Source: Acidobacteriia bacterium UBA6623 (lineage in GTDB: Bacteria > Acidobacteriota > Terriglobia > Bryobacterales > UBA6623). From it: DNA of 64,000 nucleotides. Positions within the stretch are counted from its first letter, which is position 1. Each line of letters opens with the position of its first letter. Location: positions 401-64,400 of the forward strand of contig DJHJ01000002.1 in assembly GCA_002433055.1 (NCBI GenBank), in the 5' to 3' direction. Made by a program: the position numbers and the translations under genes. The notes under the pieces are model-generated. The model ran no database searches, was not told where the DNA came from, and saw only the letters and a program-made list of their open reading frames with translations. This document shows positions 2,685-51,138 of the stretch, piece by piece.

Positions 2685-3983
2685 TCAACAGAGATTACGA
2701 TAGACCTGTACGGTTTCTTCGGCAGTACGTCGAATATCAAAGTTTTTGAGGACAGCATTGCGTCCCTGTTGGCCTAGCGTCGATACTTGATCTCGATTCT
2801 CGAGTAATTGTTCTAGCTTAGAGACGAGATCCCCAACATCACCGGGTTTGTGCAGTAATCCTCCTCCTGTTGCCTTAATCAACTCAGGAAATATGCCAAG
2901 ATCAGGTTGAATAACTGGTGTCGCACTGGCCATAGCTTCTAGGGCATATAGTCCTTTCGAAGCCGGATATGAGACCGGGACTGACAGCACATCTAAGTTG
3001 CTCAGGAAACGGATCTTCTCAGTGCGATCAATTTCTCCTAAGTATTCAAAGTCTGCACTAAAGCCAGCATCGGATACCTTGCGGGAAATTTTTTCTAAGT
3101 ATGATCTATGATGTGGGTCAAGCCAGCCAGCTACTAATAGACGAGGTGTAGGAGATGTATCACCATGTCGTCGTCTGATCTGTACAAAAGCGTCAGCTAG
3201 CAGGTCGAGACCCTTTTCGGGGCTTACACGAGCCATGTATCCAATCCGGAATTCTTCTCGGGCATGTGTGGATCCAGGCTGAAAGCCTTTGAGTGACAAC
3301 CCTGGTGAAATAACGTTGATCTCATTCACATCTACTCCAAGACGAGGGGCCATTGCAATAGCTTGGTCACGACCCGGTGCTATAAAGGTGTCAATTGACT
3401 GCGATTTTTTGAGTAGATAGCCAAAAGCCTTTTCTCTGTAGGGTGATGGTAGATGTTCGAGGAAGTGGTGTTCGCCTTGCAATGAACAGACAACGGGTAT
3501 TCCAAGTATTTTTTTTGCAGGCGATGCCAAACCAGCAAGCATGGAGTTAGTCAGATGCAATATGTCGGGTGGGTCTATTGTCATCCAATCGATAAGTTTG
3601 GCAATTTCTTTACTCTGTTGACCATCAGAACCTTCGAGTACCGAAACAGTCAGTTCCCCGAGATCTTTGGGGTCAGTTTTAACAGCAAACTTGGCGGCCC
3701 AATTTAACAACAAGGGATGGTCAAATAGTTTATCGAGCCAGTCAGGTGTAGCTCGAAACAGGGAAAATTTTTGCTGCAGAAAGGCATTAATGCCACCGAC
3801 AAAAACACGATTTAAACTAACGTCGACTTCGTCGACCTTAATTGGCGTGTATATTGGAACCAGTCGGACGTTATGCCCAAGTTCGAGCAAAGATGCTGCT
3901 AAGGTGTTGTCCAGTAGGCAGTTTCCGCAGATCATGCCTCCGGCACCCGCAGTAATGTAGTCGATCCTCATAAAATTCAACAC
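2685..3983 (-). CDS. Glycosyltransferase, GT4/GT1-like (GT-B fold)
   Basis: C-terminal half carries GT1 motifs (RLLVAGW, EYLGEIDRTEKIRFLSNLDVLSVP, EPKGLYALEAMASATPVI). The GTG at 3983 or the ATG at 3971 (MRIDYITAG...) could be the true start. Confidence 0.8.
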   Translation of the reverse strand: MLNFMRIDYITAGAGGMICGNCLLDNTLAASLLELGHNVRLVPIYTPIKVDEVDVSLNRVFVGGINAFLQQKFSLFRATPDWLDKLFDHPLLLNWAAKFAVKTDPKDLGELTVSVLEGSDGQQSKEIAKLIDWMTIDPPDILHLTNSMLAGLASPAKKILGIPVVCSLQGEHHFLEHLPSPYREKAFGYLLKKSQSIDTFIAPGRDQAIAMAPRLGVDVNEINVISPGLSLKGFQPGSTHAREEFRIGYMARVSPEKGLDLLADAFVQIRRRHGDTSPTPRLLVAGWLDPHHRSYLEKISRKVSDAGFSADFEYLGEIDRTEKIRFLSNLDVLSVPVSYPASKGLYALEAMASATPVIQPDLGIFPELIKATGGGLLHKPGDVGDLVSKLEQLLENRDQVSTLGQQGRNAVLKNFDIRRTAEETVQVYRNLC

Positions 3984-8155: not shown

Positions 8156-9052
8156 GTGAATTCTGAAAATCACATGGAACGCTGGAAATATTTTATCGGT
8201 TGGGGTGCGGCTATAGCTATGGCTACGTTATGGCTTGTTGCTGGCATTTGGAAACTGGCCAATCTATCCGATTTTCAGCTAAAAATGACTCAGTTATTGG
8301 TGCCGGTCGCGTGGAGTTTGCCCGCTACATTTGCTTTAGCAGTTGCCGAAACGTTTACTGGTTTACTGCTTCTACGACCGACTTGGCGTCGTTGGGGTGG
8401 CCATATATCTACGACACTTCTAATCGTTTTTATGGTTTATGTGGGAATCAATTATGAGGCACTTCGTGGGGCCGATTGCAGTTGCTTTCCTTGGATTGAG
8501 AGAGCTGTAGGTCCAGGATTTTTTATTGGGGACGGTGTTATGTTACTGGTGAGTGTCGTTGCAACTTTCTGGGCACCTCGATCCTCTCAGTTACGGTCAT
8601 CGTTGGTTTTGTTAGGCGGGATTGTGATTCTGGCTATAGTTTCTCTGATTTGGGACCAGGCGATCGTAACTCAAGAATACGATGTCCCTGAGACGATACA
8701 GATTGATTCAGGAGAACTCAGCCTGCGTGAGGGTCAAATCTTCGTTTACTTCTTCAATCCTACATGTCTTCATTGTTTGGATGCCGGTATAACGATGGCT
8801 GAGTTTACCTGGAAGGCGATTTTTGTTGGGGTGCCGACACAAGATTTTGATTTTGCGTCTGGTTTTGTTGATGACACTGGCCTAAGGAACGTTAGACTTT
8901 CACCTGACCTAGATTTACTGAAGACAAAATTTCCATTTGAAGATGTTCCTTATGGAGTAGCTATTCAGAATGGGCAAGTCGTCGAGAAGATGCGTTTCTT
9001 CGAGAAGCCAGAACTTGAGGAGCGACTTAGACAAGTCGAATTTATTGAGTGA
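8156..9052 (+). CDS. MauE/DoxX-type membrane protein fused to a thioredoxin-like CxxC domain
   Basis: Four to five TM helices with the MauE-like GADCSCFPW motif (Cys codons within 8477-8485). C-terminal soluble domain has FFNPTCLHC (CxxC at 8765-8776). Confidence 0.65.
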   Translation: MNSENHMERWKYFIGWGAAIAMATLWLVAGIWKLANLSDFQLKMTQLLVPVAWSLPATFALAVAETFTGLLLLRPTWRRWGGHISTTLLIVFMVYVGINYEALRGADCSCFPWIERAVGPGFFIGDGVMLLVSVVATFWAPRSSQLRSSLVLLGGIVILAIVSLIWDQAIVTQEYDVPETIQIDSGELSLREGQIFVYFFNPTCLHCLDAGITMAEFTWKAIFVGVPTQDFDFASGFVDDTGLRNVRLSPDLDLLKTKFPFEDVPYGVAIQNGQVVEKMRFFEKPELEERLRQVEFIE

Positions 9053-16077: not shown

Positions 16078-19000
16078 ATGATTCTTGTTGCGCTTCTGGT
16101 GATTTTGTCGGTTCTACCGGTTTCCTTGGTTTCTGAAACAGTTAATTTTCAACGTGACGTTAGGCCGATCCTCTCTGACAAATGTTTTCATTGTCATGGT
16201 CCTGATAAGGCAAGCCGTATGGCCGGATTACGTATGGATGTTCGCGAGAGTATGTTCGCCTCGCGAAAAAACGGTGCGGTGGTTGTGGTTGGCAAACCTG
16301 AAGAGAGTTTACTCTACAAACGTATTACTCATCCAAATGAAGGGCTACGTATGCCACCGACGTATTCAGCAAAGGAATTGACTGAAGATCAAATTGACAT
16401 ATTCAAACGCTGGATCGAGCAGGGTGCGTCCTGGAACCAGCACTGGTCTTTCAATCCCTTGATCCGACCTTCTGAGCCACATGTCAAGAACTCAGCGTGG
16501 GTGCGTAACCCAATTGATAGTTTCGTGCTTGCGCGATTAGAGAGACAGGGTCTCCCGCCAACTCCAGAGGTGGATCGCCGCACTCTAGGGCGAAGAGCTG
16601 CGCTCGATTTAACTGGTCTTCCTCCTGGGCCTGATGCATTGGAAGCATTTGTCAATGACTCTTCGGATACGGCATATGAGGATTATATCGACCGCTTATT
16701 ACAATCTGAACACTGGGGAGAACATCGTGGACGTTATTGGCTCGATGCAGCTCGATATGGCGACACACATGGTATGCATGTCGACAACTACCGTGAAATG
16801 TGGCCTTATCGTGATTGGGTAATCCAAGCGTTCAATCAAAATATGCCCTTTGATCAGTTCACTATCGAGCAGATTGCTGGTGATCTTTTGCCAAATCCAA
16901 CCCTTGATCAGCTAGTTGCCACTGGGTTTCATCGCTGTAATGTGACGACGAGTGAAGCAGGTATCATCGAAGAAGAGTACGAAGCAATTTACGCGAAGGA
17001 CCGAGCGGATACGACAGGATTGGTTTGGTTGGGTCTGACTGTTGGATGTGCAACTTGTCACGATCACAAATTTGACCCGATTTCCCAAAAAGACTTTTAT
17101 TCTTTGACGGCGTTTTTCCGCAATACCACACAGTACGTGATGGATGGTAATGTCTCTGATTCTCCTCCTATTGTGGTGGTTCCTCAAAGAGAAGATCGTC
17201 GAAAACTACAGATCTTGAAGAAACGAATAAGTAGTTTGGATAAAAGTATTGATCTTTTTTCAGACTCATCGAAAAGGAGATTTGAGTCGTGGTTGAAAAC
17301 TGGAGAGTATCGTTCTATCTCTTCACCACTTGGTGCTGATGTAGAAATTTTTAGATTGTTCACCGACGATGAACCTTATGCAGTGATCCGAGGCAAAAAG
17401 TCGAGAGTCACATTGAGCAAAGGTGTCAAGATTGGTCAAGGTCCTGACCCAAACCGAAAGGCAATACATTTCGTTGGAGAGGCCTCAACAGAATTGCCAA
17501 ATCTTTCACTCGATACCAAGAGGCCATTTTCCTTCGCTATCGAGTTTTTCATGCCAAAAGAGGAGGACCGTTTCGTAATAGCAAGCCAAGTTGATCCTGA
17601 AGATAACAACAGGGGTTGGGCTTTGACGGTCAGTGCTTTTCTTGCCCGTCTCCCAGGCTTTCATCTTTATGGTGACAATGGCAAGACTGTAGAGGTTTTC
17701 TCAGATCATTTGCAGCAGCTCCAAATGGGAAGTTGGAACCATATTACTATTACCTACGATGGAAGTGGAGAGCGGGCCGGTCTCGATCTTTTCATGAATG
17801 GTCAGTCATTACCTACACAGGGTAGTGAATACTTCGAAAAGATTGAAGGATCGATACTGAATAACGGGCCGTTTCTCTTGGGAAAAGTTATCCAAGAATC
17901 AGCAGATTTGGATGGGGTTTATGAATCCATCTTCTTCCCCGGAGGAGCTATTTCTGATTTCCGAATTTTTAACCGTGCTGTTAATTTGGAGGAGGCACAG
18001 ATTGTTTCTAGCTGGCCCATAATTCGAGAAGCAAGAGGCAAAACTCCAGATTTATTCAGTCCAAATCAAAGGGAAGCACTGCGATTGTATTACCTCAATT
18101 TGCAGAGCAAAAAGTATCGTAGGCTCTTGGCTAAACGACTAGAAGCACTCGACGAGTACCGCGAGATTCGTCGACGCGGAGGTGTGACGCATGTGATGCA
18201 GGAAGTTTCTGGACAGATGCCGGAAGCGTATGTGTTGAATCGTGGGATGTATGACCAAAAGAAAGATTTAGTGCCTGCCACTACACCTGCTGCCTTGCCG
18301 CCTATGCCTATGTCAGCACCAAAAAACCGAATGGGGTTGGCGCGTTGGTTGGTCGGCGATACCAACCCATTGACTTCGCGAGTGATAGTTAATCGTTTCT
18401 GGCAGGAAGTGTTTGGAACAGGCATTGTCAGGACAAGTGGAGATTTTGGTTCGCAGGGTGAGCCACCTTCACACCCAAATCTACTTGATTGGCTCGCGGT
18501 AGAATTTCGTGATAGAGCGTGGGATGTTAAACAGTTGTTCCGTTTAATCCTAACCTCGGCTACCTATCGACAGTCAGCAGTTGTGACACCTCAAAAACTT
18601 GAGAAAGACTTTGACAATCGATTACTTTCACGTGGGCCTCGATTTCGCATGGATGCTGAATTGATACGGGACTATGCTCTTGCTGCGAGCGGCCTTTTGA
18701 GCCGTAGGGTTGGTGGCCCTAGTGTGAAGCCCTATCAACCAGCAGGTGTCTGGGAAACGGTCGCCATGCCGGGCAGTACTACCGGTAAATACGAGCAGGA
18801 TGAAGGTGATAACTTGTATCGCCGTAGTATGTATACACTCTGGAAGCGATCTGCCCCGCCGGCTTCGATGGACATTTTTAATGCACCTACTCGTGAGCAC
18901 TGCACTGTTCAACGTGAGCGAACCAATACACCACTGCAAGCTTTGGTGACTCTAAATGACCCTCAATTTATTGAATCAGCTCGTTTTTTAGCTCAGAAGG

Positions 19001-19272
19001 CTATTGAGGCTGTAGGTGGTGACTTAGATGAACGTCTCGACTACATAACGACTCGTGTGTTGGGGCGTGTATTGGAAAGTAGTGAACGTGAGATTGCTAA
19101 GAGTACCTATGGCAAGTTCTTTAGTTACTACAAGGCCAACGGCAGTGAAGCTTTACGATTGATTCAGGTGGGGGAATCCATACCTATGGAGCTGTCACGA
19201 CCAGTCCAATCTGCAGCTCTTACCATGATGGCCAATCAATTGTTAAACTTGGACGAAGTGCTGAACAAGTAG
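16078..19272 (+). CDS. PSCyt/DUF1549/DUF1553 protein (planctomycete cytochrome c domain plus LamG-like insert)
   Basis: N-terminal heme-binding CFHCHG. DUF1549-like IDSFVLARLE and AAR(Y)GDTHG. CATCHDHKFDP motif, a central LamG-like region, and a DUF1553-like C-terminus. Confidence 0.9.
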   Translation: MILVALLVILSVLPVSLVSETVNFQRDVRPILSDKCFHCHGPDKASRMAGLRMDVRESMFASRKNGAVVVVGKPEESLLYKRITHPNEGLRMPPTYSAKELTEDQIDIFKRWIEQGASWNQHWSFNPLIRPSEPHVKNSAWVRNPIDSFVLARLERQGLPPTPEVDRRTLGRRAALDLTGLPPGPDALEAFVNDSSDTAYEDYIDRLLQSEHWGEHRGRYWLDAARYGDTHGMHVDNYREMWPYRDWVIQAFNQNMPFDQFTIEQIAGDLLPNPTLDQLVATGFHRCNVTTSEAGIIEEEYEAIYAKDRADTTGLVWLGLTVGCATCHDHKFDPISQKDFYSLTAFFRNTTQYVMDGNVSDSPPIVVVPQREDRRKLQILKKRISSLDKSIDLFSDSSKRRFESWLKTGEYRSISSPLGADVEIFRLFTDDEPYAVIRGKKSRVTLSKGVKIGQGPDPNRKAIHFVGEASTELPNLSLDTKRPFSFAIEFFMPKEEDRFVIASQVDPEDNNRGWALTVSAFLARLPGFHLYGDNGKTVEVFSDHLQQLQMGSWNHITITYDGSGERAGLDLFMNGQSLPTQGSEYFEKIEGSILNNGPFLLGKVIQESADLDGVYESIFFPGGAISDFRIFNRAVNLEEAQIVSSWPIIREARGKTPDLFSPNQREALRLYYLNLQSKKYRRLLAKRLEALDEYREIRRRGGVTHVMQEVSGQMPEAYVLNRGMYDQKKDLVPATTPAALPPMPMSAPKNRMGLARWLVGDTNPLTSRVIVNRFWQEVFGTGIVRTSGDFGSQGEPPSHPNLLDWLAVEFRDRAWDVKQLFRLILTSATYRQSAVVTPQKLEKDFDNRLLSRGPRFRMDAELIRDYALAASGLLSRRVGGPSVKPYQPAGVWETVAMPGSTTGKYEQDEGDNLYRRSMYTLWKRSAPPASMDIFNAPTREHCTVQRERTNTPLQALVTLNDPQFIESARFLAQKAIEAVGGDLDERLDYITTRVLGRVLESSEREIAKSTYGKFFSYYKANGSEALRLIQVGESIPMELSRPVQSAALTMMANQLLNLDEVLNK

Positions 19273-19335
19273 TCAATTTTAGATACAATTGATCCGACGG
19301 ACTGAATAGAAACGGAATCTAGGCGGAGAGTTATC

Positions 19336-20805
19336 ATGCACCCATCTGATCAGGCAGTTCTTGCAGAAACCCGCAGACAGTTTTTTGCCCGAGGAGCAAG
19401 AGGGATAGGCGGCATAGCACTTGCGAGCATGCTGGCCGAGAATGGTTTAGGTGATTCGCAAATAGGGGTGACCTCCTCTGACAGTCTTCCAGGTTTACCG
19501 CATTTTGCTCCAAAAGCCAAACGATGTATCTATTTGCATGCGATGGGAGCTCCGCCGCAGATGGATCTTCTTGATCACAAGCCGAAGATGAAGGATTGGT
19601 ACGACAAGGATCTGCCCGCTTCAATTCGTCAAGGTCAGCGTTTGACTACTATGACGTCAGGTCAGTCGAGATTTCCGATAGCTCCATCTGTTTTCAAGTT
19701 CAAGCAGCATGGACAGAGTGGTGCCTGGATTTCAGAACTGCTGCCAAATGTGGCAAAAATGGCTGATGACATTGCGATCATCAGATCGATGCATACTGAG
19801 GCCATTAACCACGAACCAGCGATTACGTTTATCCAAACAGGTCGCCAGGTAGCAGGACGTCCCTGTATTGGTTCCTGGCTTGCTTATGGCCTCGGAAGCA
19901 TGAATAATGACCTTCCGACATTCGCTGTCATGAATGCTGAACGTAGTCACCCGAAGGCGGGAGTACAGGCCATATCAGCACGGTTGTGGAGCGCGGGTTT
20001 TCTTTCGGCCAAGTATGCGGGGGTCGGATTACGTGGTGGAACTAATCCTGTACTGTACATTCAGAACCCAGATGGAGTTTCGAGCGAAGTGCGTCGCACG
20101 ATGCTGGATGGACTTAGTGAGCTCAATCGGCTACAGCACGCAAAAATTGGCGATCCCGAAACCTTGGCTCGCATAGAACAGTTTGAAATGGCGTTTAGGA
20201 TGCAATCGTCGGTTCCCGAGATGAGCGATCTTGCGAGTGAGCCCGAAAGCACTTTCAAGCGTTGGGGCGAAGAAGCGAAGCAACCCGGCAAATTCCAGAA
20301 CGCCGCTTTAATGGCACGTCGACTAATCGAGCGAGGCACACGCTTCGTACAGATATATCATCGTGGCTGGGATGTGCATTCATTTGCACCTGAAGTTCTA
20401 CCCGCTCAAGCTAGAGATGTTGACCAAGCGAGTTACGCGCTCATACAGGACCTTAAGGAGCGTGGTTTGTTTGAAGACACACTCGTTATTTGGGGTGGTG
20501 AATTTGGCCGCACGATTTACTCCCAGGGGAAATTGACTCCTACTGATTACGGCCGTGATCATCATCCGAGATGTTACAGCTTGTGGATGGCTGGTGGTGG
20601 TGTTAAGGGAGGTGTTGTACATGGAGAGACAGACGACTTTTCTTACAACATCGTCAAGGACCCAGTTCATATCCGTGATTTTCAAGCAACGATACTACAC
20701 CTATTTGGGATTGACCACGAACGGTTTACTCACAAGCACCAGGGTCTGGATGCCAAATTAACAGGCGTTGAGCCTGCGCATGTTGTCAAAGAGATACTGG
20801 CTTGA
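19336..20805 (+). CDS. DUF1501 domain-containing protein, canonical partner of the DUF1553 protein
   Basis: TRRQFFARGARGIGG Tat-like signal. IRSMHTEAINHEPA, WGGEFGRT and GRDHHP motifs. Confidence 0.9.
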   Translation: MHPSDQAVLAETRRQFFARGARGIGGIALASMLAENGLGDSQIGVTSSDSLPGLPHFAPKAKRCIYLHAMGAPPQMDLLDHKPKMKDWYDKDLPASIRQGQRLTTMTSGQSRFPIAPSVFKFKQHGQSGAWISELLPNVAKMADDIAIIRSMHTEAINHEPAITFIQTGRQVAGRPCIGSWLAYGLGSMNNDLPTFAVMNAERSHPKAGVQAISARLWSAGFLSAKYAGVGLRGGTNPVLYIQNPDGVSSEVRRTMLDGLSELNRLQHAKIGDPETLARIEQFEMAFRMQSSVPEMSDLASEPESTFKRWGEEAKQPGKFQNAALMARRLIERGTRFVQIYHRGWDVHSFAPEVLPAQARDVDQASYALIQDLKERGLFEDTLVIWGGEFGRTIYSQGKLTPTDYGRDHHPRCYSLWMAGGGVKGGVVHGETDDFSYNIVKDPVHIRDFQATILHLFGIDHERFTHKHQGLDAKLTGVEPAHVVKEILA

Positions 20806-27459: not shown

Positions 27460-30400
27460 TTAGTGCAGGGAGAGCACTACCATTACCGTTTCACCACTGA
27501 TCTCTATTTCACGATAGTTTTCTTGATTCGAGTCAATTTTCTCTATATTGAGCGTCGTACATAGTGTCTCTTCCATGAAATGTTTGCGACGAATTTCGAG
27601 AACGCTCTTGATTCTCTGTGAGGCTTCTATCGACAACTTAATGCGGCTCGTGTATTCGACATTAAGCTCTTTACGTAGGTCTTGTATGCGTCGAAGCAAC
27701 TCACGGTAGAGGCCTTCTTGCAGTAATTCTTCTGTCAGATTGGTGTTAAGAACCACGACTGATTGCTGATCACCGGCAGCAGCATAGTCTTCAGTGGACT
27801 CAACCAGCACCTCTACATCTTCTGCGTTGAGTGTGATGGTTTCATCACCAATTTCCATCTCGATCTTTCCGGTGGAGAGCAAATCGTGTCTTAGTTGGGA
27901 TGCGTCGACGTTTTGGAACGCTTTTTTTGCTATAGGCATCTTTTTGCCAAGTCTTGGTCCGAGTCGTCGGAAATTGGGTCGCACCGCATAGCGTACGTGC
28001 CCTTCGTCACTTCCCACGAAAGTTACTTCCTGTACGTTGAGTTCTTCTGCTATCAGATCGCGATAATTTTCAAGAGCCGCACGGTATGATTCATCAGATA
28101 AGACAATTTCTGCCAGTGAAAGAGGTTGTCGCACCTTCAATTTGTGATCAGTCCGGACTCGTAATCCAAGAGAGACGATACTTCTTACGAACGCCATCTC
28201 ATCTGAAAGTTTGTGGTCAATCGCGGCTTCATCGGGGACAGAAAAATCACATAGATGCACACTTTCGGGTTGTTGATTGCCAAATGGTTTACGTACGAGG
28301 TTCTGATAGATCTCTTCGGCTAAAAACGGGACAAAGGGTGCCACCAAATTCGTGACTGTTGTGAGAGCTTGGTAGAGTGTGGCGTAGGCATCCTGTTTGT
28401 CGATGTCTTGTTCACTTTTCCAATAACGCCTGCGACTTCGCCGCAGGTACCAATTTGATAGTGCATCGACGAAACTTGAAAGTTCCTCGGCGGCTTCGTA
28501 CACCGAGTAGTTGTCCATTAGAGACTTCACCTTGCTGTTAACCAATGCAGTTTCCGAGAGAATCCAACGATCTAACAGAGTTCTCTTTTTCAAGGGTTGT
28601 CCAGTTGTAGTAACAGGATCGAAACTGTCAATATTGGCATAGATTGTGAAAAACGAATAAACGTTGCGAAGTTTAAGTGGTAGTTCTTTTTGGAGCATTC
28701 GTACGTTACTGAGTGAATGTCGAGTTGGTGACCACGGTGGGTTGGCGGCAAAGAAGAACCAGCGAAACGCATCAGCTCCTGGGGCAGATCCGTGCGTGCT
28801 TTCGAGGGTCAATTTTTGATTGGCAGGAAGGCGTGTGACGTCATTTGGCTGTACATTTAAACCCGATGGTGTAGAACTTAAGGCGAGGTCACTACAGTTT
28901 TTCGTTGAAATGACAGCCACCCGTCGTGGTAGTTTTTTTGCTTGCTGCACTGTGAAGGATTTAGAGCGACCATCGAGCGAACCCGTTGAAAGTTTCATAA
29001 CGGTCCCCGGGGTGGCATCAAGAGCTTGGACTTCTTCACGACAAAGTAACACTTCATCCTCTTTTACTGGCATCCCGGCTTTTTCGGAGCTAACCACCGC
29101 AAATTCGTTGATCACACGGTCGAAAATTACTTCAGGAGGCGTGTAGTTACCTTTTGATTTGGACTCCTTCTTGCCCGTTGGATCGGTGACGTGACCGAGC
29201 ACAATGCAGGTGCGAAAGGGGTGAGGGTAATCTCGTTCTTCCGTGAACCCACAGCGCTGCTGAGTCTTCTTGTCAAATACAAGTGTTGAAATCATCAACT
29301 GTGAATAAAACCAACCTCGTGTTTGATCAATTGCCTCAGTAATGAAATCTGCTGGAAAAGAGTCTTCGAATTCTTTGCCCCCTTTGTGGGGATATCCGAA
29401 TTGTGCGAACGGCATACAGCCTGAGTCAAACCAACAGTCAATCACTTCGGGGATGCGTCTGTAAACACCAGGCTCATTAGGTTCTACCCAGGTAACCTCA
29501 TCTATCCAAGGTTTGTGGACCATAAGATGATCCGAAAGATCCGGATTGTCCTGTTGTTCTTTCTTGAAATGGAGAAATGCTTCGGGGTTTTTGGATTCAA
29601 TTTCTTTTACCGAAGAAGGTGCTTGCATGTTGCCAGTTTCATCGTTGATCCAGATGTTGAGTGGCGTTCCCCAATAGCGTTCACGTGATAACGCCCAGTC
29701 AACATTATTGGTCAAAAAATCACCGAACCGTCCGGTGCCGATGTGTTCAGGTAACCATTTTGCACTTTCGTTGTTGGCGATGGCATCTCTGATGTGTTCA
29801 GTCGTACGGACGAACCACGCGGGACGTGCATACTGAATTAGCGGATCATTGTCAGCTCGCCAGCAAAAGGGATAGTCGTGGCGATAGTTCTCGCGGTGTA
29901 GGAGAACACCTTCCTCCTTAAGTTTAGCTATGATCAACCGGTCGGCATCTTTGACGAAAACACCCTCCAGGTCAGGAGTTTCGTTGGTGAACTTACCGTC
30001 TGGCCCGACAGGGCACAGTAGAGGGATTTTTTGTCCATCCACGAATGAGTTTCGCGTCTTTAGAAATAATTCATAATCTACTTCACCAAACGCTGGGGCT
30101 TCGTGAACCAGTCCGGTACCCTGGTCAAGTTCGACAAAATCGCCTGATAATACTGTCCATAGAGCATTAATCGAGTCTCCAGCTTTCGATTTTACTAGTA
30201 AATCACAGTACCGTTTTGTGTAGTAGTCGAGAGGTGGGCGATACCGGCGACCTACTAGATCTATCCCTTTTATCTCTTTTTCGATAGGTAATTCACGGCC
30301 GAGCTTCTCAGCTATCGTCTCGCGTAAATCAGCAGCAAGAATAATTGAGTGAGCATCATCGCGGACCTGGACATAATCGTAGTCTTCTTTCACTGCGACG

Positions 30401-31116
30401 TATTGATTGGCGGGCAGTGTCCATGGAGTTGTTGTCCAGATTAATAGATGAGTTCCTGGTTCATCTTCGAGTTCCAATGCCACATAGACGGAAGGATCTT
30501 CTACCTCCTTGTATCCAAGACCAACCTCACCTGCCGAAAGTGCAGTACCGCCTTGCGGCCACCACCATACGATCTTGTGCCCTTGGTATAGCAAATCTTT
30601 GTGGAACAATTCCGAGAGTGCCCACCAGACACTTTCGACGTAGCTCTTGTGGTAGGTGACGTAGGCATCTTCGAGATCGACCCAAAAGCCGACTCGGTTG
30701 GTCATTTTTTCCCACTGCTCGGTGTAACGAAATACTGATTGCATACATTTCAGAATGAATTTCTTAACACCGTACTCTTCGATTGCTTCCTTACCGTGAA
30801 TGCCAAGTTCTTTTTCAACCTCAACTTCAACTGGAAGGCCGTGAGTATCCCATCCGGCTTTGCGTGGAACGTAAAAGCCGCACATTGTGCGGTAGCGCAG
30901 AAAAATATCTTTAATGACACGAGTAAGTACGTGTCCATTGTGTGGAAGCCCGTTTGCAGTGGGTGGCCCTTCGTAAAAAATGAACTTAGGACAGCCTTCA
31001 CGATTTCGAAGACTCTTTTCAAAAATTTCGTGCTCCACCCAAAACTTCCCGATTGATGCTTCTAGCTCGGGAAAATCGACGATTGGTTTCGCTTTATCAA
31101 ATTTAGATACACTCAT
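27460..31116 (-). CDS. ileS: Isoleucine--tRNA ligase, type 2 (eukaryote/archaeal-like), unusually long
   Basis: HIGH-type motif PHNGH, CP1 editing region (TTTPWTLPAN), KMSKS-type KESKSKGN, and GADAFRW. Confidence 0.97.
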   Translation of the reverse strand: MSVSKFDKAKPIVDFPELEASIGKFWVEHEIFEKSLRNREGCPKFIFYEGPPTANGLPHNGHVLTRVIKDIFLRYRTMCGFYVPRKAGWDTHGLPVEVEVEKELGIHGKEAIEEYGVKKFILKCMQSVFRYTEQWEKMTNRVGFWVDLEDAYVTYHKSYVESVWWALSELFHKDLLYQGHKIVWWWPQGGTALSAGEVGLGYKEVEDPSVYVALELEDEPGTHLLIWTTTPWTLPANQYVAVKEDYDYVQVRDDAHSIILAADLRETIAEKLGRELPIEKEIKGIDLVGRRYRPPLDYYTKRYCDLLVKSKAGDSINALWTVLSGDFVELDQGTGLVHEAPAFGEVDYELFLKTRNSFVDGQKIPLLCPVGPDGKFTNETPDLEGVFVKDADRLIIAKLKEEGVLLHRENYRHDYPFCWRADNDPLIQYARPAWFVRTTEHIRDAIANNESAKWLPEHIGTGRFGDFLTNNVDWALSRERYWGTPLNIWINDETGNMQAPSSVKEIESKNPEAFLHFKKEQQDNPDLSDHLMVHKPWIDEVTWVEPNEPGVYRRIPEVIDCWFDSGCMPFAQFGYPHKGGKEFEDSFPADFITEAIDQTRGWFYSQLMISTLVFDKKTQQRCGFTEERDYPHPFRTCIVLGHVTDPTGKKESKSKGNYTPPEVIFDRVINEFAVVSSEKAGMPVKEDEVLLCREEVQALDATPGTVMKLSTGSLDGRSKSFTVQQAKKLPRRVAVISTKNCSDLALSSTPSGLNVQPNDVTRLPANQKLTLESTHGSAPGADAFRWFFFAANPPWSPTRHSLSNVRMLQKELPLKLRNVYSFFTIYANIDSFDPVTTTGQPLKKRTLLDRWILSETALVNSKVKSLMDNYSVYEAAEELSSFVDALSNWYLRRSRRRYWKSEQDIDKQDAYATLYQALTTVTNLVAPFVPFLAEEIYQNLVRKPFGNQQPESVHLCDFSVPDEAAIDHKLSDEMAFVRSIVSLGLRVRTDHKLKVRQPLSLAEIVLSDESYRAALENYRDLIAEELNVQEVTFVGSDEGHVRYAVRPNFRRLGPRLGKKMPIAKKAFQNVDASQLRHDLLSTGKIEMEIGDETITLNAEDVEVLVESTEDYAAAGDQQSVVVLNTNLTEELLQEGLYRELLRRIQDLRKELNVEYTSRIKLSIEASQRIKSVLEIRRKHFMEETLCTTLNIEKIDSNQENYREIEISGETVMVVLSLH

Positions 31117-31171
31117 GAGTTCAAAGATATACTTTTGATTTTAGGGCTTTTTTTCGTGATGTGAAAAATAT

Positions 31172-32425
31172 ATGCAATGTAGATGTTATCTTCCTTATCT
31201 TCTGTTCTTGTGGTTGACGCTGACAGTGCTTCATCCTGCTGATAGTCGGGCTGAAGAGGTACTTTGGTTTGACAGCTACGACGAAGCTGTTGATGAGGCC
31301 AAACGGACTGGCAAACCAATTTTTTTGGAATTCAGATGTGAACCTTGAAGAGCTGGGCGCGAATTCGACGCACAGGTTGTGCTGTCATCGCTTCAGACTC
31401 ACCGCGGTCGACTTATGAGTGAGTACGTCTGTGTGCGTATTACTCGGATGGACGATGTCGATATAGGTTTGTTTGATTACGACAGGTATAACACGCTCTA
31501 TTTTTTCCTACTTAATGCCGAAGAACACATCTACATGCGTTACGGGGGGCGCGATTCTTCTTCGCCGAACAAATATCTCAACCTAGATAGTCTCGAATTG
31601 GCTCTTGAGCAAGGACTTGCAATCCATAGACGTTACCTTAGTGGTGATTGGTTGCCTTCCCAGCGCCCAAAACAGCTTTTGCCGGAAGAGATACCTGCAT
31701 TAGTCGAACAGACAACTGCAAGAGGTAGATGTGTGGAGTGTCATTTAATTGGAGATCTTCAGAATGTCCAGCGGGAAAGAGATGGAGTGCTGGATAAACT
31801 CTCCCAGATGTTTCGATCTCCAGACATAAAGCGACTGGGTATTGAGCTCGACATTCCAAAAGGATTGGTTGTGCAAGTATCTCGGGGAGCAGCTAGTGTA
31901 GCTGGCTTGTTAAGTGGCGATCGCATTGTTGAGTTTGAAGGAGTACCTGTGTGGACCTTCGGAGATTTGCAGTACGCGTATGACAAAGTTGACCGAAGAG
32001 CTAATCAGGTTCAACTGACAATTCAGCGTGCGATGCAACACATTGATATCAGCATTACTTTACCTGTACGTTGGTGGTGGACCGATTTAACCTACCGACA
32101 ATTGACTGTAGACCCAAGATCTTATTTCAAGTCAAGCCCCCTGACACCAGAGCGAAAGAAGACATTGGGCCTAGATTCACTCGGTTTTGCAGGAGAGGTA
32201 ACAAATATTGACTCAGTCGCTCAGTTGCTAAGCCTGCATACGTTGTCGATAGGGGACATTGTATTTGCGGTTAATGGTATTGGTCGTGATAAAGTTGCTA
32301 ACACGCCAGAGTTATTTATTCAGTTGCATACCAGAGCAGGGGACACGCTGACACTAGGAGTAATTCGTAAAGGGGTGCGTATGTTGATGACATTGAAAAC
32401 GGCTAGGATGAGCTATAGGAAATGA
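31172..32425 (+). CDS. Candidate selenoprotein: exported thioredoxin-fold (Thioredoxin_7-like) protein with a C-E-P-U motif and two PDZ-like domains; TGA 31346-31348 read as Sec
   Basis: The frame of the 31379 ORF is open upstream to ATG 31172 apart from one TGA. The upstream part reads MQCRCYLPYLLFLWLTLTVLHPADSRA (signal peptide), then EEVLWFDSYDEAVDEAKRTGKPIFLEFRCEP-TGA-RAGREFD. This puts the TGA exactly at the second Cys position of a CxxC thioredoxin motif. A SECIS-like hairpin follows. Downstream are PDZ-like segments (GLLSGDRIVEFEGVPV; SIGDIVFAVNG). Confidence 0.7.
31367..31386 (+). promoter_or_regulatory. SECIS-like hairpin downstream of the in-frame UGA
   Basis: GACGCAC-AGGUU-GUGC(U)GUC gives 7 bp with a bulged U (31383) and an apical loop AGGUU containing GGU. 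It starts 18 nt after the UGA. UGAAG (31346-31350) can also pair with CUUCA (31391-31395) to close a longer element. Confidence 0.5.
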
Positions 32426-33075
32426 CTCGAGTACCAGTATCGCTTGGATCGTTTAACCGATGCGTAGTTGCGATTTTTCAAAACACAGCTAAATGTCGAC
32501 GTCCTCTGCTGCAGGTGAGTATCGCCTATATTTTTCTTGTAGCTTCCCCATACGTTTACGCTTCGGGTTGGAGTGATTCGGTCGAGGTATTGTGGAACTA
32601 TCAGCCGGTAGTTACTTATAGAGCAAAGTTTGATGGGTCATTCCTTATCGTCGAAGTACACCATCAGCCTGGATGGCACACATATGCAATGGATAATCGG
32701 CTTCGAGCTAGAGAAAAGCTAGCTGGGCGAAACTCCTTGGGAATAGATACCCCGACAACCATCGCGGTAAGCGATGAATTAGAGATGTCTGGCGTGTGGT
32801 ACCAATCTCCACCAAACGACTACTCGAAACCAAAATTACGTTGGTTCACTTGGGGGTTTGAAGGGTATGCAGTGTTTGCATCTGCTGTGAAAAAAATTGG
32901 CGCAGGATCTGTCACGGTTGAGGTCCACGGACAGGCGTGTGATGAAAATAGTTGTCGCAATATAGAACTTGACTTGCTGGTGCCTCTAGACAGAACAGAA
33001 GGCATGTTCAGCGAGAAGTTCAGCCTAGAAAAATTAACTAAAGTTCGGCAGGGTAATAGCATTCAAGACAGATAG
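32422..33075 (+). CDS. DsbD-alpha-like (DsbC/DsbD N-terminal domain family) exported thiol:disulfide protein
   Basis: ATGA overlap with the upstream gene. Signal peptide (IAYIFLVASPYVYA). GWHTYA motif and C-terminal GQACDENSC Cys pair resemble the DsbD N-terminal immunoglobulin-like domain. Confidence 0.65.
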   Translation: MTRVPVSLGSFNRCVVAIFQNTAKCRRPLLQVSIAYIFLVASPYVYASGWSDSVEVLWNYQPVVTYRAKFDGSFLIVEVHHQPGWHTYAMDNRLRAREKLAGRNSLGIDTPTTIAVSDELEMSGVWYQSPPNDYSKPKLRWFTWGFEGYAVFASAVKKIGAGSVTVEVHGQACDENSCRNIELDLLVPLDRTEGMFSEKFSLEKLTKVRQGNSIQDR

Positions 33076-48882: not shown

Positions 48883-51138
48883 ATGTCCACACTGACTACC
48901 GACCTTATCACTAAACACGGGCTTACTATGGACGAGTACGACCGTATACTAGACCGTTTGGGCCGCGAGCCAACCTTGACCGAGTTGGGGATTATCAGTG
49001 TAATGTGGAGTGAGCACTGTTCCTACAAGAGTTCCCGCCTGCATTTAAAAAAACTACCTACAGAGGGAGAAAGTGTGCTTGTAGGGCCGGGAGAAAATGC
49101 TGGCATTATCGACATCGGTGATGGCTGGGCAGTGGCTTTCAAAATAGAATCTCACAACCATCCTAGCTTTATTGAGCCATTTCAAGGCGCTGCTACGGGA
49201 GTTGGTGGCATTTTGCGTGATATTTTCACAATGGGTGCACGGCCAATAGCAGTGATGGACTCACTGCGTTTTGGAATGCTAGATGATTCCAAAACTGGTA
49301 TACGTAACCGCCACATTGTCAGAGGTGTTGTGAGTGGTATCAGCCACTATGGTAATTGTTTCGGCGTACCAACAGTGGGTGGAGAATGTATTTTCGAATC
49401 TGGTTATGGCGGCAATCCCCTTGTTAATGCCTTTGCTCTGGGTATCTTTCGCAAAGACAAGATTTTTTTTGGCCAAGCCTCAGGTTCTGGCAATCCGGTG
49501 ATATACGTTGGTGCGAAAACAGGCAAGGATGGTATTCACGGTGCTTCGATGGCTTCCAGTGAATTTGACGAACAGTCCGAAGAGAAACGCCCCAACGTAC
49601 AAGTGGGAGATCCGTTCCTGGAAAAATTACTTTTAGAAGCTTGTCTCGAGGCTATGCAAACCGGTGCGATTGAGGGCATTCAAGATATGGGAGCAGCAGG
49701 GTTGACGTGCTCTACCTGCGAAATGGGCGGACGCGGGGGCAGTGGTATAGAGATTGACCTTAAGTATGTTCCACAACGTGAAGTTGGTATGACGCCTTAC
49801 GAGATCATGCTTTCCGAATCGCAAGAACGTATGTTGATTGTTGCCAAGCGAGGTCGAGAGAAGGAAGTGTACGATGTGTTTCGTAAATGGGGGTTGGATG
49901 CTGCGGAGATCGGTGTAGTTACTGGAGACGGTTTGCTTCGCGTTAAAGATCGTGGAGAAGTGGTGGCAGAAGTGCCAAACTCTCTACTCACAGATGACGC
50001 ACCACTTTATGACCGCCCCTTCTCGCAGCCTCCTCGGGTGGCTCCATTGGACGGACCGGAGATTGATTTATCTAAAAACACTGCACTTGGCGATAGTCTT
50101 GTAACGTTGCTCGGGTCTCCCGATATTTGCTCGAAGCAGTGGATTTTCGAACAGTATGACCACATGGTGAGAACAAATACGACATCAGGACCTGGCGGAG
50201 ATGCAGCAGTAATTCGCATTAAAGAAGCAGATGTTTCGTTGGCGATGTCATTAGACGGCAATGGGCGATTTTGTGTACTTGACCCGCGAGAAGGAGCAAA
50301 ATTAGCTGTTGCAGAGTGCTGCCGAAACCTTGCGGTGGTCGGTGCACAGCCGATAGCTGCTACAAATTGTCTCAATTTTGGCAACCCAGAAAGGCCGGAG
50401 ATTATGGCTCAGCTGGTTGAGGCGATTGAGGGAATGGCAGAAGCCTGCATACATTTCGAAACTCCAATTACGGGTGGCAACGTAAGTCTTTACAATGAAA
50501 CTCTCGGCGATGGAATCTACCCCACGCCCGTCGTAGGCATAGTCGGTCTGGTGCGCAACCAAGATAAGCCTATGGGTATTCATTTTCGACAAGCAGGACG
50601 TAAACTAGTTCTTTTAGGAGGGCTTTTGCCTAATGCGACCGGCAGGAAAGCACAGGCCGAACGGCGTTTTGGAAGTTCGCAATACGCGAAAATGGTTGTA
50701 GGTGGTCTTTGGGGTTTGCCTCCCAAGCTTGATATGGACTATGAGAAGCGTGTACACGAGGCTTCACGTCGAATTGTAAATACAGGGTTAACAGAATCGG
50801 CCCACGATCTCAGCGATGGTGGATTGGCGGTGGCTGCAGCTAAGTCGTCGTTCGGTTTGTCAGGAGTCGGAGCCTCTATAGAACTTCAGTCTGAGTTGCC
50901 GGTGCACCACTTGCTTTACTATGAAGCTCCATCGCGGATATTGCTGTCCGTAGTAGAAGAAGCTTTAGGTGACGTCTTAAGTATTGCTAACGACTGCGGT
51001 GTTGAAGCTCCCGTAATTGGCAAAACAATCGAGGAGCGATTAACTTTCACTGTGAATCGGGAGAAGCTCTTTGATCGCTCTGTGGATGCGTTATATGAAC
51101 ACTGGACCAATTCACTTGAAAGGAGTCTCGCAACGTGA
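48883..51138 (+). CDS. purL: Phosphoribosylformylglycinamidine synthase subunit PurL
   Basis: [16 protein letters not shown] and GNPLVNAF, with duplicated AIR-synthase-like domains. Confidence 0.97.

What the first reader, a model, noticed from the sequence alone, without database searches (positions are those of the whole stretch)
31172..32425. Probable unannotated selenoprotein: exported thioredoxin-fold/PDZ protein with a CxxU (C-E-P-U) active site
The ORF track starts this gene at GTG 31379, in the middle of a thioredoxin fold. The same frame is open upstream through one TGA (31346-31348) back to ATG 31172. The added 58 codons give a plausible Sec-type signal peptide (MQCRCYLPYLLFLWLTLTVLHPADSRA). 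They also give the classic start of a Thioredoxin_7-type domain (WFDSYDEAVDEAKRTGKPIFLEF-R-C-E-P-TGA). The TGA therefore sits exactly where the second Cys of W/R-C-x-P-C would be. The text after the TGA continues the expected fold (...EYVCVRITRMDD...TLYFFLLNAEEHIYMRYGG). A signal peptide plus half a redox motif makes no sense as a separate 58-aa peptide. The downstream ORF alone lacks both an export signal and a redox centre. Standard gene callers would truncate this gene.
Basis: partly seen in the sequence, partly recalled or inferred. Interest (0 to 1): 0.85.

Follow-up and report, generated by a model that had tools for sequence, protein, structure and literature searches.

The report
Known Trx7/PDZ selenoprotein gene, truncated by callers
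The protein belongs to a selenoprotein family that is already curated (NCBIfam NF041199, first reported in 2008), so this is a correct call and not a discovery.

Summary
ATG 31172 to stop 32425 is one reading frame interrupted only by TGA 31346-31348. That TGA is the fourth position of a C-E-P-TGA motif in a Thioredoxin_7 domain.

The selenocysteine reading is strongly supported:
- 81 of 81 homologous loci, nearly all labelled Bryobacterales or other Acidobacteriota, carry TGA in that column.
- The 27 codons upstream evolve like coding sequence.
- More distant full-length homologues have Cys there (C-x-P-C).
- An 18-nt block starting 18 nt downstream of the TGA (GACGCACAGGTTGTGCTG) is almost invariant even at synonymous sites. 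It forms a hairpin that meets the published bacterial SECIS model.

The read-through product scores 389.9 bits (cut-off 300) on NCBIfam NF041199, "Trx7/PDZ domain-containing (seleno)protein". Reviews from 2022 and 2026 list this family and trace it to Zhang and Gladyshev 2008. It is therefore already known.

Three things go beyond the finding:
- A partner gene resembling the N-terminal domain of DsbD (32422-33075) lies directly downstream in 80 of 81 loci and is fused to the protein in Verrucomicrobiales.
- A CxxCH motif is invariant across the family.
- No third gene is conserved next to the pair.

The Sec machinery could not be tested. Nothing of it lies in the window, and the rest of the genome was not available.

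The parts
31172..32425 (+). Complete coding sequence of the Trx7/PDZ selenoprotein (417 residues, Sec at position 59), read through TGA 31346-31348
   Evidence: Searches show the frame. NF041199 scores 389.9 bits against a cut-off of 300 over residues 32-409. Searches show conservation on both sides of the TGA in 81 loci.
31172..31252 (+). Probable Sec-type signal peptide (MQCRCYLPYLLFLWLTLTVLHPADSRA). The cleavage site is approximate.
   Evidence: Read directly from the sequence. Relatives have equivalent hydrophobic N-termini at the same place: L001 MPARPSLVAFFMLYAALAAARPAAAQG and L082. No signal-peptide predictor was run, so this is inferred.
31265..31582 (+). Thioredoxin_7-type (cDsbD-like) thioredoxin-fold domain
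   Evidence: Pfam PF13899 matches residues 32-90. In the AlphaFold model of the Cys homologue P0123 the thioredoxin domain is residues 37-143. Foldseek matches it to 3f9u, an exported cytochrome c biogenesis-related C-terminal domain, and to AGR2. The extent in the window was mapped by alignment offset and is inferred.
31337..31348 (+). Redox motif C56-E-P-U59 (TGT GAA CCT TGA)
   Evidence: The first Cys is invariant in 81 of 81 loci. The motif reads C-[EAS]-[PARS]-TGA in all loci.
31346..31348 (+). Selenocysteine codon (in-frame TGA)
   Evidence: TGA in 81 of 81 loci. It aligns with Cys in distant full-length homologues. TGA is also an ordinary stop for 13 of 46 long ORFs in the window, so UGA is not reassigned genome-wide.
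31350..31400 (+). Extended stem-loop predicted for this window's mRNA, with the SECIS core at its centre
   Evidence: RNAfold of UGA plus 54 nt gives -20.9 kcal/mol. The same fold appears. The lower stems are not conserved among relatives.
31367..31386 (+). Conserved SECIS core hairpin: GAC-GCACA-GGU-UGUGC-(U)-GUC. It overlaps codons D66 A67 Q68 V69 V70 L71.
   Evidence: The block is nearly invariant at nucleotide level in 79 distinct sequences. Codon entropy at these six codons is 0.10, 0, 0, 0.59, 0 and 0.26 bits. The mean for 122 other conserved degenerate codons is 1.32 bits, and none of those is below 0.15. RNAalifold recovers the hairpin. 95.4% of cells are paired, against 16-51% when the partners are slid. 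It meets the bSECIS criteria quoted in PMC13188914.
31379..31381 (+). GTG used as a false start by the mechanical ORF list. It lies in the 3' arm of the SECIS hairpin.
31730..31744 (+). Invariant C187-V-E-C190-H191 (CxxCH) motif in the helical linker between the thioredoxin and PDZ domains. Its role is unknown: a haem-c-like site or a second redox or metal site.
   Evidence: One search gives the coordinates. C196, E198, C199 and H200 are invariant in the 44-sequence alignment A2. CxxCH is also kept in the 25-30% identical Cys forms.
31868..32062 (+). PDZ domain 1
   Evidence: Pfam PDZ_2 matches residues 233-297, E 3.1e-10.
32126..32398 (+). PDZ domain 2 (approximate extent)
   Evidence: P0121 and P0123 each show two PDZ stretches. 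Foldseek matches the P0123 model to the PDZ tandems of DegP, DegQ and RseP. The extent was mapped to the window by alignment offset and is inferred.
32422..33075 (+). Partner gene (217 aa), start overlapping the selenoprotein stop (ATGA). It encodes an exported nDsbD-like domain with an invariant C173-x4-C178 (nt 32938-32955).
   Evidence: It lies directly downstream in 80 of 81 loci. It is the only other universally syntenic gene. It is fused to the C-terminus of Verrucomicrobiales Cys forms (BLASTP 35% identity, E 3e-35). Pfam DsbD_N is hit by 40 of 60 orthologues, but the window copy reaches only E 0.034. Foldseek matches the fused domain to the N. meningitidis DsbD N-terminal domain 6dps, TM 0.66-0.69.

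Best explanation
Window 31172-32425 is a single gene for an exported selenoprotein of the known Trx7/PDZ family (NCBIfam NF041199).

UGA 31346-31348 is read as selenocysteine. The conserved hairpin GCACA-GGU-UGUGC (31367-31386), whose apical loop begins 25-26 nt after the UGA, would recruit SelB carrying Sec-tRNA(Sec) to the ribosome. That is the standard bacterial SECIS mechanism. Its use here is inferred from sequence and has not been shown.

The mature periplasmic protein has three parts: a cDsbD-like thioredoxin fold with a C56-x-x-U59 redox centre, a helical linker with an invariant CxxCH motif, and a PDZ tandem.

The most likely function is a thiol/selenol-disulfide oxidoreductase. It would work with the co-transcribed nDsbD-like partner (32422-33075, C-x4-C), much as the two periplasmic domains of DsbD pass electrons from one to the other. 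The PDZ tandem would bind substrate or partner peptides.

What is shown: one reading frame, a conserved TGA, a Sec/Cys pair, a conserved RNA hairpin, family membership, and partner linkage and fusion. What is inferred: actual Sec insertion, periplasmic location, the redox relay, its direction and its substrates.
For: Frame and motif:
- One frame with a single TGA.
- NF041199 scores 389.9 bits against a cut-off of 300. The Cys forms P0123, P0180 and P0212 also pass.
- TGA in 81 of 81 loci.

Coding conservation:
- Upstream codons behave as coding sequence. For example A43 and R55 are 100% conserved but use 4 and 6 different codons.
- The closest relative, L082, has the same ATG and TGA, with mostly third-position differences.
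- Cys occupies the TGA column in distant full-length homologues.

Hairpin:
- Synonymous-site invariance is confined to the 18-nt block.
- The hairpin is recovered by RNAalifold and is 95.4% paired.
- MFE is at or below -7.5 kcal/mol in 78 of 79 sequences and -20.9 in the window.
- These values fit the bSECIS rules: 3-9 nt loop, G in the first two loop positions followed by G or U, 16-37 nt spacing, MFE at or below -7.5 (PMC13188914).

Context:
- TGA is a normal stop elsewhere in the window.
- The family is listed as a CxxU selenoprotein in PMC13188914 and PMC9312934, with its origin in PMC2398784.
- Acidobacteria are known to have selenoproteins (PMC1794560).

Relay model:
- Partner linkage in 80 of 81 loci and fusion in Verrucomicrobiales.
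- DsbD_N hits in 40 of 60 orthologues.
- The AlphaFold model of the fused form has pLDDT 90.1 and pTM 0.86. Foldseek matches it to a cDsbD-like thioredoxin domain (3f9u), to nDsbD (6dps) and to the DegP/RseP PDZ tandems.
Against: - No tRNA-Sec, selA, selB or selD lies in the window or in the roughly 0.9 Mb of related loci. The decoding machinery of this genome is therefore unverified.
- The hairpin shows no compensatory changes. It is simply invariant, with only three one-sided, pair-preserving changes. The support comes from conservation and not from covariation.
- The hairpin is part of the minimum-energy fold in only 55 of 79 sequences.
- The window's own Thioredoxin_7 match (24.7 bits) and DsbD_N match (14.6 bits) are below the Pfam thresholds.
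- No membrane electron donor of the CcdA or DsbD-beta type is conserved next to the pair.
- No experimental data exist for any member of the family.
Confidence: 0.9

Rival explanations
1. The TGA is read through by a mechanism that does not involve selenocysteine. One candidate is an opal-suppressor tRNA of the allo-tRNA type reported in Acidobacteria. Another is near-cognate insertion of Trp or Cys. Position 59 would then not be Sec.
For: tRNAs with unusual cloverleaf structures that may act as nonsense suppressors have been reported from Acidobacteria (PMC5389517). No Sec machinery could be shown for this genome.
Against: A strictly conserved hairpin at SECIS distance, with the G-G/U loop signature, is what SelB-dependent decoding requires. 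General suppression does not explain it. The TGA sits exactly at the redox Cys column of a CxxC motif, the classical Sec/Cys pair. TGA ends 13 of 46 long ORFs in the window, so an efficient general suppressor would be costly. NCBI curators and two reviews treat the family as a selenoprotein.
Confidence: 0.05
2. The TGA is a true stop. The locus would encode a 58-aa exported peptide plus a separately initiated 336-348-aa PDZ protein, or it would be a decaying pseudogene.
For: Standard gene callers annotate it this way in every database copy seen. ATG or GTG codons exist downstream of the TGA (31379, 31418). In many relatives an ATG directly follows the TGA.
Against: TGA in 81 of 81 species-level genomes, with the frame kept and both flanks under purifying, coding-type selection, is incompatible with a pseudogene. 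The two pieces form one thioredoxin fold that matches Thioredoxin_7 and NF041199 across the TGA. The downstream piece would lack both a signal peptide and a redox centre. Cys-containing homologues are single full-length proteins.
Confidence: 0.03
3. The TGA is a sequencing or assembly error for TGC or TGT in this window, and the protein is an ordinary CxxC thioredoxin-fold protein.
For: A single base change would convert Cys to TGA. Cys forms of the family exist.
Against: The same TGA is present in 81 independent assemblies, including the 90% identical L082. It is always accompanied by the conserved hairpin.
Confidence: 0.01

Closest known systems
NCBIfam NF041199, 'Trx7/PDZ domain-containing (seleno)protein'. 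Reviews list it as 'Trx7/PDZ domain-containing protein, CxxU' and 'PDZ domain-containing protein (pfam13899), CxxU'. It was reported from the GOS metagenome in 2008 as 'putative secreted serine protease MucD'.
   Same: The match covers the full length and exceeds the equivalog cut-off (389.9 against 300 bits). The architecture is the same: signal peptide, Thioredoxin_7 domain with CxxU, then PDZ domains. The Sec position is the same. GenBank homologues carry this exact product name.
   Different: Nothing essential differs. This copy comes from a lower-G+C (47%) lineage apparently related to marine Solibacterales/Bryobacterales. The equation of the 2008 'MucD' family with NF041199 rests on the citations in the review tables and on PMC9402790, not on a sequence comparison made here.
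DsbD, the periplasmic thiol-disulfide reductase: nDsbD immunoglobulin-like domain, tDsbD membrane domain and cDsbD thioredoxin-like domain
   Same: A cDsbD-like thioredoxin domain with a CxxC/U motif is paired with an nDsbD-like domain bearing a Cys pair. Pfam DsbD_N is hit by 40 of 60 partner orthologues. Foldseek matches the model to 6dps and 3f9u. The two are encoded as neighbours or as one fused chain.
   Different: No membrane (beta/CcdA-like) domain is encoded in or next to the module. The domain order in the fused forms is thioredoxin, PDZ, PDZ, nDsbD, which differs from n-t-c. There is an added PDZ tandem and a CxxCH linker. Sec replaces the second Cys. The partner Cys spacing is C-x4-C. 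Sequence similarity to DsbD is weak.
Consensus bacterial SECIS element (bSECISearch model; prototype E. coli fdhF)
   Same: The hairpin lies in the coding region just 3' of the UGA. [quoted passage not shown] Spacing is 25-26 nt, within the 16-37 nt range. MFE is -20.9 kcal/mol. A bulged U lies below the upper stem.
   Different: The upper stem is short at 5 bp. Its sequence is family-specific and unrelated to fdhF. No Rfam family matches it. SelB binding is untested.
Other thioredoxin-like periplasmic selenoproteins curated by NCBI: the VPGUxxT families (NF041382, NF041383) and the rhodanese/DsbD fusion-like TsoB (NF045694)
   Same: There is weak N-terminal similarity around the start of the thioredoxin fold (E 2.5e-4 to 0.09). 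All are exported thioredoxin-fold proteins with Sec in the redox motif.
   Different: The scores are far below the cut-offs (20.5 against 350, 11.9 against 805). The motif and domain architecture differ.
MamP, the magnetochrome protein (PDZ plus CxxCH haem domains)
   Same: Both combine a PDZ domain with CxxCH in a periplasmic protein. There are weak PDZ-level matches: NF040965 at 27 bits and PDB 4jj0 at E 1.7e-4.
   Different: The matches cover only the PDZ domain. Here a single CxxCH lies upstream of the PDZ domains, whereas MamP has two downstream of its PDZ domain. No haem evidence exists for this family.

Membership tests
NCBIfam NF041199 Trx7/PDZ domain-containing (seleno)protein | Full-length HMM score above the curated equivalog cut-off (300 bits) | tested here: met
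   389.9 bits, E 1.2e-116, residues 32-409 against profile positions 3-389 of 390, with U replaced by C.
NCBIfam NF041199 Trx7/PDZ domain-containing (seleno)protein | N-terminal Thioredoxin_7-type domain with a CxxC/CxxU motif | tested here: met
   PF13899 matches residues 32-90 across the TGA. At E 2.5e-5 and 24.7 bits it is slightly under the gathering score of 27. C-E-P-TGA is at residues 56-59. The motif is conserved in 81 loci.
NCBIfam NF041199 Trx7/PDZ domain-containing (seleno)protein | C-terminal PDZ domain(s) | tested here: met
   PDZ_2 matches residues 233-297 at E 3.1e-10. A PDZ tandem is seen in the homologue model.
Bacterial selenoprotein gene | An in-frame UGA that aligns with Cys in homologues (Sec/Cys pair) and with UGA in orthologues | tested here: met
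   TGA in 81 of 81 loci. Cys in P0123, P0180, P0189, P0190, P0212, P0218, P0233, P0248 and P0255.
Bacterial selenoprotein gene | A bSECIS stem-loop downstream of the UGA: 3-9 nt loop, at least 4 bp upper stem, G in the first two loop positions, 16-37 nt spacing, MFE at or below -7.5 kcal/mol | tested here: met
   Criteria taken from PMC13188914. The hairpin is GCACA-GGU-UGUGC, 25-26 nt after the UGA, with MFE -20.9 kcal/mol in the window. 78 of 79 sequences are at or below -7.5. Synonymous sites in the block are frozen. No dedicated bSECIS program was available.
Bacterial selenoprotein gene | Covariation support for the SECIS helix | tested here: inconclusive
   No pair changes on both sides because the helix is invariant. 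There are 3 one-sided changes, all pair-preserving.
Bacterial selenoprotein gene | The genome encodes selA, selB, selC (tRNA-Sec) and selD | not testable with these tools
   None was found among the 46 ORFs of at least 150 aa or the tRNAs of the window, nor in the flanks of 81 loci. At phylum level, Acidobacteria are known to have selenoproteins (PMC1794560).
Bacterial selenoprotein gene | Selenium shown in the protein (75Se labelling or mass spectrometry) | not testable with these tools
   This needs an experiment. No such data turned up for this family in the literature searched.
DsbD-type periplasmic electron relay | A thioredoxin-like (cDsbD-type) domain with a redox CxxC | tested here: met
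   Foldseek matches the P0123 model to 3f9u, TM(target) 0.60-0.61, E 2.6e-5. There is a weak NCBIfam DsbD match for P0180 over DsbD residues 422-516.
DsbD-type periplasmic electron relay | An nDsbD immunoglobulin-like domain with an active-site Cys pair | tested here: inconclusive
   40 of 60 partner orthologues hit PF11412 at E 0.01 or better (best 8.5e-6). The window copy reaches only E 0.034 at 14.6 bits, below the cut-off of 25. Foldseek matches the fused domain to 6dps, TM 0.66-0.69. C173 and C178 are invariant. A profile search of PDB sequences found nothing.
DsbD-type periplasmic electron relay | A membrane domain (tDsbD/CcdA) linked to the two periplasmic domains | tested here: not met
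   Only the two genes are conserved in the neighbourhood of 81 loci. No transmembrane thiol-transfer protein lies next to the pair in the window. One could be encoded elsewhere in the genome.
c-type cytochrome / magnetochrome | A CxxCH haem-attachment motif | tested here: met
   C187-V-E-C190-H191 is invariant across the family.
c-type cytochrome / magnetochrome | A cytochrome fold, or covalent haem demonstrated | tested here: inconclusive
   No cytochrome appears among the top 50 Foldseek hits or the PDB sequence hits. The MamP similarity is limited to the PDZ domain. Showing haem needs an experiment.

The most novel reading that the evidence does not exclude
The Trx7/PDZ selenoprotein and its always-adjacent nDsbD-like partner would form a split, selenium-dependent, DsbD-type periplasmic redox relay. 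The invariant CxxCH would be a third functional centre, either a covalent haem c or a second redox or metal site. The PDZ tandem would select substrates. In some lineages the partner may itself be a selenoprotein: L016 has TGA at a Cys column. None of this (partner, fusion, CxxCH) appears in the literature I could search, which only lists the family.
Probability: 0.25. Interest if true: 0.5.

Novelty: already known. Interest (0 to 1): 0.28.

Why it matters
For annotation: the gene should be called as one 417-residue selenoprotein (31172-32425, Sec59). It should not be called as a 336-348-residue 'PDZ/hypothetical/serine protease Do' fragment. All 120 best database homologues show this truncation, so the family is systematically mis-called in metagenomes.

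For biology: the family is widespread in Bryobacterales and has no known function. The tight two-gene module with an nDsbD-like partner, the fusion in Verrucomicrobiales and the invariant CxxCH give a concrete, testable hypothesis of a periplasmic selenol/thiol relay. As a selenoprotein discovery, however, the finding adds nothing new.

Tried and rejected
- Exact look-up of the window ORF in public assemblies found no record.
I used the post-TGA part and the Cys homologue P0123 instead.
- A search for tRNA-Sec found none in the window or in 81 loci scanned with ARAGORN.
- A search for selA, selB and selD among all 46 window ORFs of at least 150 aa found none. The AIRS-domain protein at 48883-51138 carries an FGAR amidotransferase (PurL-type) linker domain, so I took it for PurL rather than SelD.
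- A scan for other in-frame TGA candidates in the window found none credible. The Cys-TGA at 2685-2687(-) ends a complete GT1 glycosyltransferase and was judged an ordinary stop.
- There is no covariation in the SECIS helix because it is invariant.
- The hairpin matches no Rfam family.
- A search for a third conserved gene, for example a CcdA-type membrane donor, found none.
- A profile search of PDB sequences with the partner alignment gave no hit.
- Literature searches for 'Solibacter usitatus' with 'selenoprotein' and for 'Trx7' returned nothing useful.
- The promoter and terminator scan gave counts no higher than shuffled sequence.
- Model coordinates are not exposed, so Cys-Cys distances in the P0123 model could not be measured.
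Full report
**1. The observation**

ATG 31172 opens a frame that runs 58 codons to TGA 31346-31348. The same frame continues for 358 more codons to the stop at 32423-32425. The mechanical ORF list splits this into 31172..31348 and GTG 31379..32425.

The frame opens at 31160, just after an in-frame TGA at 31157-31159, so 31172 is the first ATG. The product reads MQCRCYLPYLLFLWLTLTVLHPADSRA / EEVLWFDSYDEAVDEAKRTGKPIFLEFR-C-E-P-[TGA]-RAGREFDAQVVLSS...

With Cys placed at the TGA, Pfam finds Thioredoxin_7 over residues 32-90, so the match spans the TGA (E 2.5e-5, 24.7 bits, slightly under the gathering score). It also finds PDZ_2 over residues 233-297.

**2. Is the TGA read through?**

A search with the read-through product returned 1179 homologues. 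All 120 best ones are N-terminally truncated at 325-359 aa. Many begin 'MAGRVFDAQVVLS', which is an ATG immediately after the TGA column. This is the signature of a whole family being cut by gene callers.

I fetched 80 loci from species-representative genomes plus one long metagenome contig. Most are labelled Bryobacterales, Bryobacteraceae, Solibacteraceae or Terriglobia, and a few are labelled Acidimicrobiia. In 81 of 81 loci the column is TGA, within C-[E/A/S]-[P/A/R/S]-TGA.

The 27 codons upstream behave as coding sequence. W32, Y36, A43, R55 and C56 are 100% conserved while using 1-6 synonymous codons. For example, A43 uses 4 codons (entropy 1.79 bits) and R55 uses 6.

The closest relative is L082, 90% identical in DNA and fully syntenic. 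It has the same ATG, signal peptide and TGA, and its differences lie mostly at third codon positions.

In the window TGA is also an ordinary stop, ending 13 of 46 long ORFs. The recoding is therefore site-specific and not a change of genetic code.

**3. Sec/Cys pair**

An exhaustive search of 1.8 billion cluster representatives with the post-TGA part found more distant, full-length relatives. These carry Cys at the TGA column:
- P0123: FRCVPCVNGREFDAKV (45% identical)
- P0180, P0190, P0233, P0248, P0255: FRCVPC
- P0189: LRCVPC
- P0212: FRCDPC
- P0218: IRCEQC

Two others, P0176 and P0194, have lost the motif. The Cys forms P0123, P0180 and P0212 pass the same NCBIfam model.

**4. SECIS element**

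In the alignment of 79 distinct sequences around the TGA, the block GACGCACAGGTTGTGCTG (window 31367-31384) is nearly invariant, while neighbouring codons vary freely.

I quantified this with codon entropy among sequences sharing the majority amino acid. At D66, A67, Q68, V69, V70 and L71 it is 0.10, 0, 0, 0.59, 0 and 0.26 bits. For 122 other conserved, degenerate codons of the gene the mean is 1.32 bits, and none is below 0.15. Selection is therefore acting on the RNA itself, not only on the protein.

RNAalifold recovers the hairpin GCAC-AGGUU-GUGC. With the A-U closing pair and the lower GAC/GUC stem (bulged U), 95.4% of cells are paired. When the partners are slid, only 16-51% are paired.

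There are no compensatory changes. The only changes are three one-sided ones, all pair-preserving (two G-C to G-U, one C-G to U-G). The support therefore comes from conservation and not from covariation.

The hairpin meets the published bacterial SECIS constraints (PMC13188914):
- a loop of 3-9 nt (here GGU, or AGGUU);
- G in the first two loop positions followed by G or U;
- 16-37 nt between the UGA and the loop (here 25-26);
- MFE at or below -7.5 kcal/mol. The window gives -20.9, and 78 of 79 sequences pass.

The GTG at 31379, which the ORF list uses as a start, lies in the 3' arm of this hairpin.

**5. What it is**

The read-through product scores 389.9 bits (cut-off 300, equivalog) on NCBIfam NF041199 'Trx7/PDZ domain-containing (seleno)protein', over residues 32-409. 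GenBank homologues annotated by PGAP carry this very name.

[quoted passage not shown] A 2022 review lists it as 'PDZ domain-containing protein, pfam13899, CxxU' (PMC9312934). The 2026 review cites Zhang and Gladyshev 2008 (PMC2398784). That paper reported a CxxU 'putative secreted serine protease MucD' family with 2 Sec and 12 Cys sequences and noted only that a thiol-related redox function is implied.

**6. Surroundings and likely mechanism**

The next gene (32422-33075, 217 aa) overlaps the stop codon (ATGA). It is found directly downstream in 80 of 81 loci, and the one exception is a 1.5-kb contig that ends too early. No other gene is conserved around the pair.

In Verrucomicrobiales the Cys forms are 580-617 aa long and carry this protein fused to their C-terminus. 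The window partner aligns with P0123 residues 441-603 at 35% identity, E 3e-35.

The partner family has invariant H86, D91, W126, Q171, C173 and C178 (C-x4-C). Forty of 60 orthologues hit Pfam DsbD_N at E 0.01 or better, although the window copy reaches only E 0.034.

An AlphaFold model of the fused P0123 is confident (pLDDT 90.1, pTM 0.86). Foldseek matches its parts as follows:
- the PDZ tandem to those of DegP, DegQ and RseP;
- the thioredoxin domain to 3f9u (an exported cytochrome-c-biogenesis-related C-terminal domain) and to AGR2;
- the fused C-terminal domain to the N-terminal domain of Neisseria DsbD (6dps, TM 0.66-0.69).

The module thus resembles the two periplasmic domains of DsbD, encoded separately or fused, with Sec in the thioredoxin-like centre. 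I infer a periplasmic selenol/thiol-disulfide relay between C56/U59 and partner C173/C178, with the PDZ tandem binding substrate or partner peptides.

This is inference. No membrane electron donor is linked to the pair, and I could not measure distances in the model because coordinates are not exposed.

A further unexplained feature is an invariant CxxCH motif: window C187-V-E-C190-H191, nt 31730-31744. It lies in the helical linker and is kept even in homologues only 25-30% identical. It is the consensus haem-c attachment motif, and the window encodes a protein with a PSCyt1 'Planctomycete cytochrome C' domain. No cytochrome fold was detected, however.

**7. What could not be settled**

No tRNA-Sec, selA, selB or selD is present in the window or in the flanks of the related loci. 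The rest of the genome is not available to me. Acidobacteria as a phylum have selenoproteins (PMC1794560).

Non-Sec read-through, for example by the suppressor-like allo-tRNAs described from Acidobacteria (PMC5389517), cannot be formally excluded. It does not explain the conserved SECIS-type hairpin or the exact Sec/Cys correspondence.

**8. Verdict**

Novelty is 'already known': this is a further member of NF041199.

The practical value is correct annotation. The modest new leads are the obligatory nDsbD-like partner, its fusion in Verrucomicrobiales, the invariant CxxCH, and a possible second Sec in the partner gene of one relative (L016 1447-1449).

Noticed in passing
window 32422-33075 (+): The 217-aa downstream gene overlaps the selenoprotein stop codon. 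It is syntenic in 80 of 81 loci, is fused to the protein in Verrucomicrobiales Cys forms, and looks like a divergent DsbD N-terminal domain with an invariant C-x4-C. Neither Pfam nor NCBIfam names the window copy.
   Followed up: yes
L016 1447-1449: The partner gene of one Terriglobia MAG has an in-frame TGA exactly at a column that is Cys (TGC/TGT) in 33 of 61 orthologues (KR[C/U]VSYRA). The 60 nt starting at that TGA fold at -27.8 kcal/mol, with a G-first loop 26 nt after the TGA. It may be a second selenoprotein or an error. This is a single case.
   Followed up: partly
window 31730-31744 (+): A CxxCH motif (C187-V-E-C190-H191) is invariant across the whole Trx7/PDZ family, including the distant Cys forms. 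It is a haem-c-type motif of unknown role and is not mentioned in the literature found.
   Followed up: partly
window 31345 (+); alignment A1 column 9: The base immediately 5' of the Sec TGA is T in 78 of 79 sequences, although the codon itself varies (CCT, GCT, CGT, TCT). This may be a context requirement for recoding.
   Followed up: no
window 2685-2687 (-): The TGA stop of a GT1 glycosyltransferase (2685-3983) is preceded by Cys (..NLC-TGA-GFD..) and followed by 41 open codons. I judged it an ordinary stop because the GT1 domain is complete. Homologues were not checked.
   Followed up: partly
window 8156-9052 (+): A 298-aa protein has a MauE domain (PF07291) at residues 14-137 only. The C-terminal half, about 160 aa, is unassigned.
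   Followed up: no
window 58658-62050 (-): A 1130-aa single-chain protein combines biotin carboxylase, a biotinyl (BCCP) domain and a carboxyltransferase domain. It appears to be a fused acyl-CoA carboxylase.
   Followed up: no
window 16078-20805 (+), 1209-2651 (+), 63221-63997 (-): A PSCyt1/PSCyt2/PSD1 protein (1064 aa) is followed by a DUF1501 protein. There is a second DUF1501 gene and a DUF1552 gene at the window edge. These are the paired families typical of Planctomycetes and Solibacter-type genomes. The PSCyt1 domain is named 'Planctomycete cytochrome C' in Pfam.
   Followed up: no
window 27460-31116 (-): An unusually long isoleucyl/class-I tRNA synthetase (1218 aa) with a C-terminal DUF5915 is transcribed divergently. 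Only 55 bp separate it from the selenoprotein start. The intergenic sequence is conserved in L082.
   Followed up: no
L082 (ena:ERZ27247711:k141_225704) and protein cluster of P0001: The closest relatives are about 90% identical in DNA and have the same gene order: PQQ dehydrogenase, M19 dipeptidase, IleRS, selenoprotein, partner, methyltransferase, ThuA. They are deposited as a truncated 'hypothetical protein [Solibacterales bacterium]' (MBH00361.1, Tara). This suggests a marine Solibacterales/Bryobacterales origin for the 47% G+C window.
   Followed up: partly
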